Virus record (IMG/VR): IMGVR_UViG_2645727868_000005
DNA length: 4,360 nucleotides
Direction: 5' to 3' (one strand)
Source: a virus
Lineage: Duplodnaviria; Heunggongvirae; Uroviricota; Caudoviricetes
This document shows positions 1 through 4,360 of this stretch, in pieces. Position numbers and translations under genes: made by a program. Under the pieces are notes generated by a model, which did not search any database, was not told the DNA's origin, and was given only the letters and a program-made list of their open reading frames with translations. Within the stretch, counting starts at the first letter, position 1; every line of letters starts with the position of its first letter.

Positions 1-1537
1 CGGGAAATACACCGCACAGGATGCAACGACAGCACAGAAAGGGATAATCCAGCTAAGCAGCGCGACCAACAGCACGTCTGAAACGCTGGCGGCAACGCCA
101 AAGGCAGTAAAAGCAGCCAATGACAATGCTGAGAAACGTCTGCAGAAAGATCAGAACGGTGCGGATATCCCTGGCAAAGACACCTTTACGAAAAATATTG
201 GTGCCTGCCGTGCCTTCGGTGGGTCAGTAAGCACAACAACAGGAAACTGGACGACTGCACAGTTTATCGAGTGGCTGGATTCTCAGGGAGCATTTAACCA
301 TCCATACTGGATGTGCAAGGGTTCCTGGTCTTATGGCAATAATAAAATCATTACTGATACTGGCTGCGGTAATATTCATCTCGCCGGAGCTGTCATTGAA
401 GTAATGGGGATAAAGTCAGCGATGACGATCCGCATTACCACTCCGACCACATCCAGCGGTGGCGGAACAACCAACGCCCAGTTTACCTATATTAATCACG
501 GAACAGATTATTCACCTGGCTGGCGAAGGGACTATAACTCCAGAAATAAGCCAACGGCATCAGAGATCGGGGCGTTACCGTCAGGTGGAACAGCAGTATC
601 ATCAGTTAATCTGTCTTCAAAAGGTCGGGTAACCGCGCTGACAGACAATACGCAGGGGGCAACAGGTCTTGAGTTATACGAGGTGTATAACAACGGATAT
701 CCAACAGCGTATGGAAATATCATTCACCTGAAAGGGATGACAGCCGTTGGCGAAGGTGAGTTACTCATCGGCTGGAGTGGTACAAGCGGTGCTCATGCTC
801 CGGCATTTATTCGTTCACGACGGGATACGACCGACGCAAACTGGTCGCCGTGGGCGCAGCTTTACACCTCGGCTCATCCTCCTGCAGAGTTTTATCCAGT
901 CGGTGCACCAATCCCGTGGCCATCAGATACCGTTCCGTCTGGTTATGTCCTGATGCAGGGGCAGACTTTTGACAAATCTGCATACCCGAAACTTGCAGCC
1001 GCTTATCCGTCAGGCGTGATCCCTGATATGCGTGGCTGGACGATTAAGGGCAAACCTGCCAGTGGTCGGGCCGTATTGTCTCAGGAACAGGACGGCATTA
1101 AATCGCACACCCACAGCGCCAGCGCATCCAGTACGGATTTGGGGACGAAAACCACATCGTCGTTTGATTACGGCACTAAATCCACGAATAACATCGGGGC
1201 GCATACGCACAGTGTGAGCGGTACAGCCGCAAGTGCCGGAAACCATACTCATAGTGTCACAGGCGCATCAGCAGTCAGCCAGTGGTCACAAAATGGGTCA
1301 GTACATAAGGTAGTGTCTGCGGCCAGTGTGAATACAAGTGCTGCAGGAGCGCACACTCATAGTGTCAGCGGCACAGCTGCATCTGCAGGTGCTCACGCAC
1401 ATACTGTCGGTATTGGTGCTCATACGCACTCGGTTGCGATTGGCTCACATGGACACACCATCACCGTTAACGCTGCTGGTAACGCGGAAAACACCGTCAA
1501 AAACATCGCATTTAACTATATTGTGAGGCTTGCATGA
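1..1537 (+). CDS. stf: Side tail fiber protein, C-terminal portion (lambda Stf-like); 5' end lies upstream of the window
   Basis: The reading frame beginning at position 2 is open from the window edge to TGA at 1535-1537; the ATG at 311 in the ORF track is internal. The translation carries the conserved tail-fiber box [21 protein letters not shown] (nt 50-112), which I recall from P2 gpH and lambda Stf, a [55 protein letters not shown] segment, seven HxH repeats ([54 protein letters not shown]) and the C-terminus [15 protein letters not shown] that I recognise as lambda-type Stf. Confidence 0.9.
1106..1456 (+). repeat. Protein-level His-x-His repeat array in the tail fiber tip (diverged at DNA level, not a nucleotide tandem repeat)
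   Basis: Seven HxH motifs in G(A/S/N)H(T/A/G)H(S/T) contexts are encoded between 1106 and 1456. The two [15 protein letters not shown] copies use different synonymous codons, so this is an old in-frame duplication. Confidence 0.7.
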
Positions 1538-2436
1538 TTACGCTCATTCTTTCTGCACCAGTAACCGAAATGGCTGAAGCATTTAAGCGGGTATTTGCAA
1601 ATGCAGATAATGTGAATATTGTCGGAAAGCCATTTGAAACAATCAGAGAATTTGACTGCATGGTAAGTGCGGCAAATAGTTTCGGCCTGATGGATGGCGG
1701 TGTTGATGCCGCCATTACCACATTCTTCGGTTCTCAGCTACAGGCCCGCGTTCAGAATCATATTCTTCGTGAATATCTCGGCGAGCAGCCTGTAGGTTCT
1801 GCATTTGTTATTGAAACGGGGCATAATTATCACCCCTGGCTGGTACATGCGCCAACAATGCGTGTTCCGTTGACAATTGACGGAACAGACGCTGTATATA
1901 ACGCAACTTGGGCAGCTCTACTTGCTATCTTTCAGCACAATAAAAACGCAACGACAGACAGGAAAATAAAGACGGTGGTATTCCCTGCAATGGGAGCCGG
2001 ATGTGGTCAGGTGCCGTTTGAAAGCGTTGCCCGGCAGATGAAGCAGGCATGGGATAACTTTAATAAAAAAACAGAATCAATTAACTGGGAATACGCACAA
2101 TCCCGCCAGTCGGCAGTATTTGGCACATATGCATACTGTCCGGGTAATTCTGTTTGCCGTTATGCGGATACTAAATATATTGGATGCGGCGATTATCGGA
2201 CGTATTGCTCACGCTCCGGGCAGGTCTGTATTAACCCTGAACATCAGGCTGATGATGTACTGATACAACATCAGGCTAATAACCGGTTTCGCCCTGGTTC
2301 GCATATACACCGGATTAATCCAGAAAATCCTGTAGGTAATGTCATCTCTGGCGCACATAGCCACGGAAGTAGCATCGTTATTGGTGCTCACACCCATACG
2401 CTCAATAAACAATATTCTGTCTCTGATATTAAGTAG
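1534..2436 (+). CDS. Macro-domain (ADP-ribose binding/processing) protein fused to a Cys-rich, HxH-containing fiber-tip-like C-terminal module
   Basis: 300-aa ORF. Its ATG (1534-1536) overlaps the stf stop (ATGA, 1534-1537), with GAGG at 1525-1528 five nt upstream. Residues around nt 1654-1716 read [21 protein letters not shown], matching the macro-domain N-A-A-N...G-G-G-V...A-I box; nt ~1975-2010 encode [12 protein letters not shown], matching the second macro box (AFPAISTGVYG-like). The C-terminal part has five Cys in [32 protein letters not shown] and two HxH motifs (GAHSHG, GAHTHT). Stop TAG at 2434-2436. Confidence 0.75.
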
Positions 2437-2444
2437 AGGTGAAC

Positions 2445-3029
2445 ATGGATTTCAGAATGAGTGAACAACCACGGACCATAACAATTTATAATCTGCTGGC
2501 CGGAACTAATGAATTTATTGGTGAAGGTGACGCATACATTCCGCCTCATACAGGTCTGCCAGCAAACAGTACCGATATTGCACCGCCAGATATTCCGGCT
2601 GGTTTCGTGGCTGTTTTCAACAGTGATGAGTCATCGTGGCATCTCGTTGAAGATCATCGGGGTAAAACGGTTTATGACGTGGCTTCCGGCGACGCGTTAT
2701 TTATTTCTGAACTCGGCTCATTACCGGAAAATGTCACCTGGTTATCCCCGGAAGGGGAGTTTCAGAAGTGGAACGGCACAGCCTGGGTGAAGGATACGGA
2801 AGCAGAAAAACTGTTCCGGATCCGGGAGGCGGAAGAAACAAAAAACAGCCTGATGCAGGTAGCCAGTGAGCATATAGCGCCGCTTCAGGATGCTGTGGAT
2901 CTGGAGATCGCAACGGAGAAAGAAACCTTGTTGCTGGAAGCCTGGAAAAAGTATCGGGTGTTGCTGAACCGTGTTGATACATCAACTGCACCTGATATTG
3001 AGTGGCCTGCGGTCCCTGTTATGGAGTAA
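2445..3029 (+). CDS. tfa: Tail fiber assembly protein (chaperone), lambda Tfa family
   Basis: ATG at 2445 with SD AGAGGTG (2435-2441) five nt upstream. The product [79 protein letters not shown]...[11 protein letters not shown] is 194 aa and near-identical along its length to lambda Tfa ([18 protein letters not shown]...) as I remember it. The ORF track's GTG at 2439 is two codons upstream and overlaps the SD, so ATG 2445 is preferred. Confidence 0.92.
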
Positions 3030-3141: not shown

Positions 3142-4260
3142 CTATGATATCCCTGAAATGTCCTCTTCAAGCTCTTTTACTGATTTCGCAATTTTAAATT
3201 TAAATTTTCTCTCTATTTCACTATTGCTAAGTTTTTTTTCATTCTCTTTCCCTATCCACATAGAAACAATTTCTCGTTTCTGAGATATATGTAGATTGTC
3301 AAAGTTAGGTATGTATTTAAAAGTCTCCGCTCTACCCCTGCGGAGTTCATAGAAAGTTTTAATCAAAGACTTTGGTTTTATTTCTGATGAAAGGCCGAAT
3401 CGGCGGATAAGATTATTGATCGTATGATTAACAGCTCGAAGTTGAGCTGTTGACGTTATTTGTGAGAAGTACGATACCCATCCCAATCGTTTACCTTCAA
3501 ACACACATCCCGTAATTCTAAGATTTAGTTTCCACTGACAATATGCAACAGCTCGTTCTTTATCGTGCTTATTTTTAGCTTGTAGTAGAGCGTGTCTATA
3601 TGCAGTAAAAATTTTTGCTAAGGATGACTCAAATCTAAGAATGCTCTCATGTTTTATCAATAATTCTCGATTTTTTATGTGGTAGCCCAAAAAGTTGAAA
3701 CTTTCATCCAAGCTGCCTACTTTGGATTTTGAGTTCTCTTCATTTAATGGATGTGGGTTTAAATTTAATGATTGAAGCTTATCAATGATATGAGATGCAA
3801 TTTTTGTTGCTTGATCTTTTTGCGTTAAAATAAGAATGTCATCAACGTATCGCATGTACCATATGTCATGCATTTTATTGATTTCATTGTCGAAATCAGA
3901 TAGTGATATTTCAGCTAAAATGTTTGATATTGCTAACCCCTGAGGTACTCCTCTGGTATTATTAGGGACACCTTTGCTTCCTGTACTTCCACTTACAGTA
4001 GGCACGATTAATGATGATGTTATTAACTGCCTAATTTCTTTTTTTCTAATCTTATTTTTTATTGCATTAAATATCAATTTATGTTCAATTGAAGGATAGA
4101 AACTTTTGAGATCTATTTTTGCATATTCAGCATATAGATCGCTGTTTAATGCATTTTTCAATAAGTCAATTACTGTATGTGGTAGTTTTAATCTGGAGTT
4201 AGGATATATTTCTGTAAGGCATACCAGATTCGCCCGGATCTTCCGAAGTTGTTTCCACAC
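3142..4260 (-). CDS. Reverse transcriptase, compact single-domain prokaryotic RT (candidate defence-associated RT; class unresolved)
   Basis: 372-aa minus-strand ORF from GTG (plus 4258-4260) to TAG (plus 3142-3144). RT motifs present: motif 1 IDLKSFYPSI (plus 4087-4113), motif B RGVPQGLAISNILAEISL (GVPQG at plus 3937-3951), motif C YMRYVDDILIL (YVDD at plus 3838-3849), motif 7 FNFLGYHI. An in-frame TGA lies 11 codons upstream of the GTG with no other start in between. The gene is AT-rich (roughly 30-35% GC) against about 50% GC in the fiber genes. Confidence 0.85.
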   Translation of the reverse strand: MWKQLRKIRANLVCLTEIYPNSRLKLPHTVIDLLKNALNSDLYAEYAKIDLKSFYPSIEHKLIFNAIKNKIRKKEIRQLITSSLIVPTVSGSTGSKGVPNNTRGVPQGLAISNILAEISLSDFDNEINKMHDIWYMRYVDDILILTQKDQATKIASHIIDKLQSLNLNPHPLNEENSKSKVGSLDESFNFLGYHIKNRELLIKHESILRFESSLAKIFTAYRHALLQAKNKHDKERAVAYCQWKLNLRITGCVFEGKRLGWVSYFSQITSTAQLRAVNHTINNLIRRFGLSSEIKPKSLIKTFYELRRGRAETFKYIPNFDNLHISQKREIVSMWIGKENEKKLSNSEIERKFKFKIAKSVKELEEDISGIS

Positions 4261-4300
4261 ACCGAAAAGAACGCAGCTTAAATTTCCATTTCACGCTCTT

Positions 4301-4330
4301 TAACAATAAGCAATCAACTTAACAGTCAAT
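4301..4330 (-). promoter_or_regulatory. Candidate sigma70-like promoter for the RT gene (speculative)
   Basis: On the minus strand, TTGACT (-35-like; plus 4324-4329) is followed 15 nt later by TATTGT (-10-like; plus 4303-4308), about 45 nt upstream of the GTG start. Spacing is slightly short and the -10 match is 4 of 6. Confidence 0.2.
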
Positions 4331-4350
4331 TCAAACTAAAGGAGTCAATT

Positions 4351-4360
4351 ATGCAACCAC
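4351..4360 (+). CDS. 5' end of an unidentified plus-strand gene (M-Q-P...), divergent from the RT; continues beyond the window
   Basis: ATG at 4351 preceded by strong SD AAAGGAG (4338-4344) at 6-nt spacing. Only three codons are visible, so no product call is possible. Confidence 0.3.

What the first reader, a model, noticed from the sequence alone, without database searches (positions are those of the whole stretch)
1534..2436. Macro-domain gene wedged between the side tail fiber and its chaperone
The sequence shows a 300-aa ORF with both macro-domain signature boxes ([18 protein letters not shown] and [12 protein letters not shown]). It is embedded in the late fiber operon: its start overlaps the stf stop (ATGA), and its stop overlaps the SD of tfa. 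In phage lambda, as I recall, stf is directly followed by tfa, so this looks like cargo inserted into a normally contiguous structural pair. Macro domains bind or hydrolyse ADP-ribose, ADP-ribosylated substrates and O-acetyl-ADP-ribose. Late co-expression with the fiber, plus a fiber-tip-like C-terminus, suggests a virion-associated enzyme. It could reverse ADP-ribosylation-based host immunity (for example DarT-type DNA ADP-ribosylation) or degrade ADP-ribose-derived immune signals. This is a hypothesis, not an identification.
Basis: partly seen in the sequence, partly recalled or inferred. Interest (0 to 1): 0.72.

Follow-up and report, generated by a model that had tools for sequence, protein, structure and literature searches.

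The report
Macro-domain enzyme inside phage fibre module
A real, well-conserved ADP-ribose-processing (macro-domain) enzyme gene sits as optional cargo exactly between a phage's side tail fibre gene and its fibre chaperone gene; databases already annotate it but nobody has worked out what it does, and a role in undoing ADP-ribose-based bacterial immunity is the best guess, not yet shown.

Summary
ORF 1534-2436 (300 aa) is a genuine macro-domain protein (Pfam PF01661, 68.6 bits, E=6e-19). Its ATG overlaps the stf stop (ATGA), and its stop abuts the tfa Shine-Dalgarno. Compared with a 99%-identical stf/tfa pair in phage SPF_0923, it is a precise 908-nt insertion.

It is not new as an annotation. 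RefSeq calls it "macro domain-containing protein", Gifsy-1 carries it (STM2588.1n), and it is PHROG 2613. I found no functional study.

New here:
- The phage clade alone adds a conserved four-Cys module (dN/dS 0.12-0.22) and a fast-evolving tail of 1-3 fibre-type GxHxH repeats.
- In 80 of 80 viral contigs it sits in the same place, coupled to a fibre ending ...NYIVRLA and (74 of 75) a lambda-type Tfa. This holds in lambdoid, Gifsy, P2-like and phage-plasmid backbones.
- It occupies only about 1% of such junctions in E. coli, so it is accessory.

Best reading: a late-made, probably oligomeric ADP-ribose hydrolase or phosphatase serving counter-defence. The target and any virion association remain untested.

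The parts
2..1537 (+). 3' part of the side tail fibre gene stf. It runs off the left edge of the window. The tip carries 7 HxH repeats and ends ...[19 protein letters not shown].
   Evidence: Pfam Phage_fiber_2, Collar and Phage_fiber; PHROG 295 tail fiber E=1.8e-183. RefSeq annotates it as 'prophage tail fiber N-terminal domain-containing protein'. HxH count.
1525..1537 (+). Coupling junction GAGGCTTGCATGA. The SD (GAGG, 1525-1528) and the ATG (1534) both lie inside the last stf codons, and the stf stop TGA is at 1535-1537.
   Evidence: The junction GTGAGGCTNGC(A/G)TGATT is identical in all 11 examined loci and in 80/80 IMG/VR loci. In macro-less phages the same SD serves tfa.
1534..2436 (+). 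Macro-domain protein gene (300 aa), identical to WP_000631346.1.
1534..2118 (+). Macro domain of the Ymx7/Macro_2-like type, aa 1-195. It includes the N-terminal strand-helix-strand insertion, the N48 / G51-D58 loop and the G154-G158 loop.
2119..2259 (+). Cys-rich module, aa 196-242: C202-x5-C208-x16-C225-x6-C232, then H237 Q238 x D240 D241. It is specific to the fibre-linked phage clade.
   Evidence: Invariant columns in A1. dN/dS 0.12-0.22. Present in 74/75 viral loci. No Pfam match. pLDDT 60-80.
2260..2436 (+). Variable tail with three GxHxH fibre-type repeat units (H257, H275, H286), followed by the stop codon.
   Evidence: dN/dS 0.28-0.96. pLDDT below 50 as a monomer.
2436..3029 (+). tfa (tail fibre assembly protein): SD GAGGTG at 2436-2441, ATG at 2445.
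   Evidence: Pfam Caudo_TAP E=1.7e-44; PHROG 105; RefSeq CDS.

Best explanation
The gene encodes an accessory, non-structural-by-default enzyme. Its N-terminal 195 residues are a catalytically intact macro domain of the Ymx7 (ADP-ribose-1''-monophosphatase) type, which binds ADP-ribose and hydrolyses a group attached to its distal ribose. The gene has no promoter or terminator. It is translated by coupling to stf upstream and passes ribosomes on to tfa downstream, so the protein is made late, in step with the fibre.

The phage-specific C-terminus (a four-Cys module that probably binds metal, plus 1-3 fibre-type GxHxH repeats) most likely makes the enzyme oligomerise. It may do so as a metal-stapled trimer, possibly helped by Tfa. 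The whole unit travels by homologous recombination with the lambda-type fibre-tip/Tfa host-range cassette between lambdoid, Gifsy, P2-like and phage-plasmid genomes.

The most likely biological role is counter-defence: removing an ADP-ribose mark (on nucleic acid or protein) or an ADP-ribose-derived metabolite that a host immune system produces during late infection.

Shown: fold, family, conservation, insertion, synteny, dispensability. Inferred: catalysis, late expression, oligomerisation, the counter-defence role and its target.
For: - The ligand-loop residues N48, G51, D54, G56, D58 and G158 are at least 90% conserved across 74 diverse homologs.
- Purifying selection: dN/dS is 0.08-0.13 on the macro domain and 0.12-0.22 on the Cys module.
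- Precise 908-nt insertion relative to SPF_0923.
- Accessory: the insert is present at about 1% of tfa-class junctions. Plaque-forming phages with 96-97% identical flanks lack it.
- No promoter or terminator signal above the shuffle expectation, and the coupling junctions are conserved.
- Stand-alone homologs in unrelated phages lie among non-structural genes. Bacterial homologs of about 195 aa lack the C-terminal extension. Both facts point to a soluble intracellular enzyme.
- Precedent that phage macrodomains are counter-defence enzymes: AdfM against DarTG2 (10.1101/2025.11.20.689424; PMC13309987).
- GxHxH units are shared with the Stf tip. That such repeats form metal-coordinated trimers in T4 gp37 is established knowledge recalled from memory, not tested here.
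Against: - No biochemical or genetic data exist for this protein or any close relative.
- The closest characterised relative is a housekeeping phosphatase, not a defence antagonist.
- The protein is not of the DarG/AdfM clade.
- Late expression is an odd time to counter DNA-replication-targeting ADP-ribosylation.
- The strict fibre-Tfa position in 80/80 loci and the fibre-like tail are not explained by a free cytosolic enzyme.
- Asp8, common in the wider family, is Ala in this clade. The significance of this is unknown.
- Bacterial homologs have no conserved neighbour to indicate a substrate.
Confidence: 0.4

Rival explanations
1. Fibre-associated virion protein. The GxHxH tail and Cys module dock or co-assemble the protein (with Tfa's help) onto the side-fibre tip. 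The macro domain is then displayed outside the cell and binds or modifies a surface structure. This would resemble the gp38 adhesins of T2-like phages, which are encoded just after gp37 and cap the fibre tip.
For: - Invariant position between the fibre and Tfa, with translational coupling, in 80/80 viral loci and in four or five phage backbones.
- The C-terminal extension exists only in this clade and shares repeat units with the Stf tip.
- The tail evolves fastest in the module (dN/dS up to 0.96, against about 0.1 for the Tfa N-domain), as receptor-contacting tips do.
- The association is always with a single fibre-tip class...NYIVRLA.
Against: - The same fibre/Tfa pairs work without it.
- Known macro-domain ligands are intracellular nucleotides.
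- In fibre proteins it is the N-terminus, not the C-terminus, that attaches proximally. Here the enzyme is N-terminal.
- No fibre Pfam model matches the tail.
- The invariant synteny can equally be explained by one ancient insertion inherited with the cassette (lineage-wise co-variation).
- No virion proteomics data were found.
Confidence: 0.22
2. Housekeeping-type nucleotide clean-up for the phage. The enzyme is simply an ADP-ribose-1''-phosphate/ADP-ribose metabolite phosphatase, like Ymx7, that detoxifies or recycles NAD-derived by-products during late infection. No immune system is involved.
For: Ymx7 is the closest solved and characterised relative by three methods. Orphan homologs of about 50% identity are widespread in bacterial chromosomes with no conserved defence neighbour.
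Against: The gene is rare (about 1% of junctions) and patchy, which fits conflict-driven cargo better than metabolism. The phage-specific C-terminal extension has no role in this scenario. Many macrodomains show Appr-1''-pase activity in vitro as a side reaction (established knowledge).
Confidence: 0.15
3. Lysogenic-conversion factor. The protein is expressed from the prophage (for example by read-through from lom) and benefits the host. It might work as an orphan antitoxin-like eraser against incoming ADP-ribosylating toxins, or in virulence.
For: The gene lies in the moron-rich right end of the prophage, next to lom and the RT-SLATT defence cargo. In Gifsy-1 it lies near virulence genes (gogB, pagK-like).
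Against: No promoter-like signal lies in or before the cassette. The start codon is embedded in the stf coding end, and the gene also occurs in P2-like virulent-capable isolates and phage-plasmids in the same late-operon position.
Confidence: 0.08
4. Essential fibre assembly factor, or alternatively a decaying remnant.
For: The position next to tfa. One frameshifted copy (L168) and one remnant (SEN34) exist.
Against: About 99% of junctions of this class lack the gene, and plaque-forming phages with near-identical stf/tfa lack it. Strong purifying selection and 74/75 intact copies argue against decay.
Confidence: 0.03

Closest known systems
Yeast Ymx7 / YMR087W, ADP-ribose-1''-monophosphatase (PDB 1njr, 1txz, 1ty8; Pfam Macro_2-type)
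   Different: Identity is only about 20%. Ymx7 is a stand-alone eukaryotic housekeeping enzyme with no Cys-rich/HxH extension. Pfam Macro_2 itself scores below its cutoff here (23.4 against 27 bits), while PF01661 passes. Activity was not tested for the phage protein.
AdfM (anti-DarT factor macro): T4 Tk.4; PhiKZ gp104 / PhiPA3 gp108
   Same: It is a phage-encoded macrodomain. Its demonstrated role is erasing ADP-ribose from DNA to defeat DarTG2 (10.1101/2025.11.20.689424; PMC13309987), which is the functional model proposed here.
   Different: AdfM is DarG2-like (N22/K80 chemistry). Our protein is nearer Ymx7. A Tk.4 homolog ranks only 25th among viral models (E about 1e-4). PADLOC DarG scores E=0.005. 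In PhiPA3 the relative of our protein is gp271, not the AdfM gene gp108. AdfM is not fibre-linked and has no C-terminal extension.
Gifsy-1 STM2588.1n, SEN5_19 and PHROG 2613 (same family, uncharacterised)
   Same: These are orthologs at 63-70% identity, with the same three-part architecture and the same fibre-macro-tfa position.
   Different: Nothing of substance differs. They show that the gene was already noticed and annotated ('contains pfam01661, Macro') but never studied.
gp38 adhesins of T2/S16-like phages (protein encoded after the distal fibre gene that caps the fibre tip)
   Same: The gene order (fibre, then a small protein next to or acting with a chaperone) and a rapidly evolving segment are shared. 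This comparison is recalled from memory and serves as an analogy only.
   Different: There is no sequence or fold similarity, and gp38 has no enzymatic macro domain. Attachment of the macro protein to a fibre is not shown.

Membership tests
Macro domain superfamily (Pfam PF01661) | Significant profile match above the curated cutoff | tested here: met
   68.6 bits against a cutoff of 22, E=5.9e-19, covering profile positions 1-118 of 118.
Macro domain superfamily (Pfam PF01661) | Three-layer alpha/beta/alpha macro fold | tested here: met
Macro domain superfamily (Pfam PF01661) | Conserved ligand loops (Asn of the xAAN strand end; the GGxD loop; the Gly-rich phosphate loop) | tested here: met
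   N48, G51, D54, G56, D58 and G158 are at least 90% conserved in A2 (74 sequences, mean column identity 25%). Their positions in a bound-ligand model were not checked.
Macro domain superfamily (Pfam PF01661) | ADP-ribose binding or hydrolysis | not testable with these tools
   This needs ITC or enzyme assays.
Ymx7 / Macro_2-type Appr-1''-p phosphatases | Closest structural neighbour, with the N-terminal LxLxD strand + helix + strand insertion | tested here: met
Ymx7 / Macro_2-type Appr-1''-p phosphatases | Pfam PF14519 match above cutoff | tested here: not met
   23.4 bits against a cutoff of 27, and only aa 42-112 are matched. The protein is therefore a relative of this family and not a curated member.
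Ymx7 / Macro_2-type Appr-1''-p phosphatases | Appr-1''-p phosphatase activity | not testable with these tools
   This needs an enzyme assay.
DarG2 / AdfM-type anti-DarT macrodomains | Sequence or profile membership in the DarG macro clade | tested here: not met
DarG2 / AdfM-type anti-DarT macrodomains | Removal of ADP-ribose from thymidine in ssDNA; protection from DarTG2 | not tested
   This needs in vitro de-ADP-ribosylation and plaque assays. Failing clade membership does not exclude the activity.
Phage tail fibre proteins (Phage_fiber PF03335 / HxH needle repeats) | Profile match to the fibre repeat models | tested here: not met
   No Pfam family matches aa 176-300 even at E<=10. There is only motif-level similarity to the Stf tip (E=7e-4 in a two-sequence BLASTP).
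Phage tail fibre proteins (Phage_fiber PF03335 / HxH needle repeats) | Presence in the virion / trimeric fibre | not testable with these tools
No proteomics data were found in the literature.

The most novel reading that the evidence does not exclude
The protein is a new class of fibre-tethered enzyme. Its fibre-derived GxHxH/Cys tail, folded with Tfa, would fix a trimer of ADP-ribose-processing macro domains to the side tail fibre (or to Tfa on the fibre tip). The virion would then carry an ADP-ribose eraser or binder to the cell surface or into the earliest moments of infection. No phage is currently known to do this with a macrodomain.
Probability: 0.15. Interest if true: 0.85.

Novelty: new variant of a known kind. 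Interest (0 to 1): 0.5.

Why it matters
Phage macrodomains have only just been shown to be counter-defence enzymes: AdfM against DarTG2, in 2025-2026. This family is a second, unrelated macro clade. It is very common in Salmonella and E. coli prophages, including the model prophage Gifsy-1, and clusters in the protein collection hold hundreds of member sequences each.

It differs from AdfM in three ways. It is of the Ymx7 type, it carries a conserved Cys-rich module plus a fibre-repeat tail, and it is locked into the host-range (fibre tip/Tfa) exchange cassette.

If it is an immune antagonist, host-range modules would carry an immunity-evasion gene along with receptor specificity. That would matter for understanding prophage spread and for engineering therapeutic phages by fibre swapping. 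If it is fibre-bound, it would be a new kind of virion enzyme. Either outcome is directly testable in well-established genetic systems (lambda-like coliphages, Gifsy-1, P2-like phages).

Tried and rejected
1. **C-terminal module elsewhere.** I searched for the C-terminal module (aa 195-300) in other proteins. Only truncated or chimeric gene calls of the same family came back, and Pfam found nothing. There is no evidence that the Cys module is a fibre-tip domain.
2. **Neighbours of stand-alone homologs.** I clustered the neighbours of 73 stand-alone bacterial homologs. The best cluster is present in only 11 of 73 loci, so there is no operon partner and no toxin clue.
3. **Co-variation test.** I compared identities of the macro tail with the fibre tip and the Tfa N-domain. 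Everything co-varies by lineage, as linked genes do, so the test is uninformative.
4. **'Tail protein' labels.** Homologs in jumbo phages and rhizobiophages carry this label, but their contexts are non-structural. The label is a propagated name. One cyanophage copy is near an S74 structural gene, which is anecdotal.
5. **First structure prediction.** The 14 close homologs gave pLDDT 56 and the model was discarded. The 74-sequence alignment gave a usable model.
6. **Loss of the adenine-contacting Asp.** The canonical Af1521 'GDIT' Asp aligns to a non-conserved position in the whole Ymx7-like family, and Ymx7 itself has His there. This is not diagnostic. The D8-to-A change in this clade remains unexplained.
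7. **Fusion to Stf by frameshift.** No slippery sequence precedes the ATGA, and an SD is correctly spaced. Rejected.
8. **A prophage-borne ADP-ribosyltransferase partner.** None is annotated in the prophage.
9. **Fibre-tip dN/dS.** The ungapped estimate is unreliable because of repeat indels, and I do not use it.
10. **Literature.** Eight searches found no study of this gene.
Full report
**What is in the window.** The 4,360-base window is the right end of a lambdoid prophage. It contains the 3' part of the side tail fibre gene stf (2-1537, +), a 300-aa ORF (1534-2436, +), the tail fibre assembly gene tfa (2445-3029, +) and, on the minus strand, a reverse transcriptase gene (3142-~4222). The window is identical over the finding to many complete E. 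coli chromosomes. One example is strain THO-003, where the prophage lies next to yecD/aspS and the ORF is annotated WP_000631346.1, 'macro domain-containing protein'.

**Observation check.**
- Both quoted motifs are present.
- Pfam Macro (PF01661) matches aa 44-169 across the full profile, at 68.6 bits against a cutoff of 22 (E=5.9e-19).
- The ATG (1534) overlaps the stf stop (TGA, 1535-1537), and a GAGG lies 5 nt upstream inside the last stf codons.
- The TAG stop (2434-2436) overlaps GAGGTG, which lies 5 nt before the tfa ATG.
- No sigma-70-like promoter or intrinsic terminator stands out; the counts are at or below the shuffle expectation.
- In Salmonella phage SPF_0923, the stf (99.0% identical) and tfa (95.5%) abut as TGATG. 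The window therefore carries a clean 908-nt insertion at 1538-2445.
- Lambda, HK629/630, PhiR29_1/2, mEp460 and others also match only the flanks.

The 'fibre-tip-like C-terminus' is confirmed only at the level of a short repeat.

**How common, and where.** The gene occurs in 128 of 5,426 complete E. coli genomes (131 places, 22 of them on plasmids). tfa-class sequence occurs at 13,677 places in 5,210 genomes, so the insert occupies roughly 1% of such junctions.

The family is large: 1,702 clusters at E<=1e-3, found in Escherichia, Salmonella, Citrobacter, Enterobacter and Erwinia. It is named either 'macro domain-containing protein' or 'phage tail protein'. It is PHROG 2613, 'unknown function' (E=3e-147).

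It sits between the fibre gene and tfa in several backbones:
- Gifsy-1, as STM2588.1n, whose record already notes 'contains pfam01661'
- the P2-like phages Chuche and SEN4/SEN5
- phage-plasmids of about 95-115 kb

In 80 IMG/VR loci, all 80 have the start codon (75 ATG, 5 GTG) overlapping the stop of an upstream ORF ending ...NYIVRLA. Of the 75 scored in full, 74 are followed within -12 to +30 nt by a Tfa carrying the PPHTGLP motif, and 74 keep the Cys module. The exception is a frameshifted copy. In the Erwinia and Izhakiella loci the macro stop also overlaps the tfa start as ATGA.

**Anatomy of the protein.** Alignment of family members shows three parts.

2. *aa 196-242, the Cys-rich module.* The pattern is C202-x5-C208-x16-C225-x6-C232 followed by HQxDD. 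It is conserved across Escherichia, Salmonella, Erwinia, Citrobacter and Enterobacter, modelled at moderate confidence as a beta-hairpin plus helix, and has no Pfam match.
3. *aa 243-300, the variable tail.* It holds one to three (I)G(A/S)HxH units, sometimes with the same 9-residue period as the Stf tip repeats. BLASTP against the Stf tip gives E=7e-4, and the HxH enrichment has shuffle p=0.00025.

Nei-Gojobori dN/dS is 0.08-0.13 for the macro domain, 0.12-0.22 for the Cys module and 0.28-0.96 for the tail. The Tfa N-domain, as a comparator, gives about 0.1-0.2. The first two parts are therefore under purifying selection. The tail keeps its frame and motif but is free to change, or is driven to.

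**Wider relatives.** The macro domain alone has 2,360 representative homologs at E<=1e-3. Typical ones are proteins of about 195 aa, about 50% identical, in Chloroflexota, Cyanobacteria, Acidobacteriota and others. They have no conserved gene neighbour.

Stand-alone copies also occur in jumbo phages (Noxifer, PhiPA3 gp271, Klebsiella/Serratia jumbo phages, phiRSL1), rhizobiophages, a Microcystis phage and giant viruses. Where I looked, these lie among small non-structural genes. Their 'tail protein' labels are therefore names propagated from the enteric family. The C-terminal extension is confined to the fibre-linked clade.

**Literature.** I found no paper on this gene. Two recent works show that a phage macrodomain can be an immune antagonist. 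AdfM (T4 Tk.4) is needed on DarTG2 hosts (10.1101/2025.11.20.689424). Chimallivirus AdfM (PhiKZ gp104, PhiPA3 gp108) removes DarT2-made ADP-ribose from DNA (PMC13309987). Those proteins are DarG2-like. In PhiPA3 the relative of our protein is a different gene, gp271.

**Interpretation.**
- *Settled:* this is a real, selected, accessory macro-domain gene. It was inserted once, or rarely, into the stop/start overlap of a lambda-type fibre-tip/Tfa cassette, and it now moves with that cassette among unrelated phage backbones.
- *Excluded:* it is not a general fibre component and not needed for fibre assembly, because near-identical stf/tfa pairs in plaque-forming phages lack it. It is not a decaying remnant. 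It is not paired with an ADP-ribosyltransferase in the prophage.
- *Inferred:* it is made late by translational coupling. It is catalytically active on an ADP-ribose derivative. Its C-terminus makes it oligomerise, because HxH fibre repeats form metal-bridged trimers in T4 gp37 (recalled from memory, not tested here).

I rank a counter-defence ADP-ribose eraser first (0.40), by analogy with AdfM and because the gene is rare, patchy cargo in a conflict-rich region. A fibre-tethered virion protein comes second (0.22). That reading best explains the invariant position and the borrowed fibre repeats, but it lacks any direct support. A purely metabolic Appr-1''-p phosphatase (0.15) and a lysogenic-conversion role (0.08) follow.

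**Novelty and score.** The existence and the domain call are already in public annotation, so the bare observation is known. What is not described, as far as the held literature shows, is the following:
- the Ymx7-type affiliation
- the conserved Cys-rich plus fibre-repeat extension
- the strict fibre-macro-Tfa coupling across phage types
- the distinction from AdfM

I file it as a new variant of a known kind (phage macrodomain enzymes), with interest 0.5. It is a well-defined, easily testable candidate in model systems, but it has no demonstrated function and a plausible ordinary outcome.

Noticed in passing
window 3142-4360 (minus strand); L001 21609-23508: Downstream of tfa lies a defence-type reverse transcriptase (PADLOC RT_UG17, E=3.5e-117). 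In strain THO-003 it is 456 aa and is followed by a SLATT-domain gene. In the window the RT is cut at ~4222 and joined to 138 bases that match a lambdoid early region (transcriptional regulator / YdaT). No complete E. coli genome has this junction, so it is either a rearrangement or an assembly chimera.
   Followed up: partly
phage records: Noxifer gp265 (L091), phiRSL1 ORF054 (L092), P106B_77 (L089), PhiPA3 gp271: Stand-alone homologs of this macro clade in jumbo phages and rhizobiophages are labelled 'tail protein' or 'tail assembly-like', yet they lie among small non-structural genes. The label looks like annotation carried over from the enteric fibre-linked family. PhiPA3 therefore encodes two different macrodomains: gp108 (AdfM) and gp271.
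   Followed up: partly
L090 (Microcystis phage Mae-JY35) 3935-4492: A stand-alone homolog with 4-nt gene overlaps sits two genes upstream of a peptidase-S74 (fibre intramolecular chaperone) structural protein. It is the only distant copy I saw in a structural neighbourhood.
   Followed up: no
L011 and L013 (Izhakiella australiensis): The four-Cys module is replaced by a longer, unrelated Cys/Gly/His-rich segment (…ACGCTATTDWHPDMW…GCDCGCGWG…), while the GxHxH tail and the ATGA coupling to tfa are kept. A metal-binding-like linker appears to be what is conserved, more than its sequence.
   Followed up: no
L006 (Salmonella phage SEN34) 4001-4183; L168: There are remnants and pseudogenes of the family. 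SEN34 keeps only aa 184-244 (the Cys module) after its tfa and an O-acetyltransferase gene. IMG/VR locus L168 is a frameshifted copy.
   Followed up: partly
L002, L008, L087 versus window 2413-2436: The 289-aa variants differ from the 300-aa variant by a single TAT-to-TAA change. The last 11 residues (YSVSDIK…) are therefore dispensable read-through.
   Followed up: yes
P0018, P0250 (protein database entries): Two odd fusions appear among the database entries. One has a ParM/StbA-like N-terminus joined to macro aa 62-300. The other has a lysozyme-like N-terminus joined to the macro C-terminal part. They are probably chimeric contigs or gene calls.
   Followed up: no
L173 17974-20832 (same prophage in THO-003): Between the Q antiterminator and the lysis genes, the prophage carries a cytosine methyltransferase and a DUF262 protein plus a HEPN-like nuclease pair. 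This is further defence-type cargo, and no ADP-ribosyltransferase is annotated.
   Followed up: no
window 1534-1557 (aa 1-8) versus alignment A2: Most members of the wider family have LxLxD at the first strand. The fibre-linked clade has an invariant LILSAPV, with Ala in place of Asp8. Whether this alters ligand specificity is unknown.
   Followed up: partly
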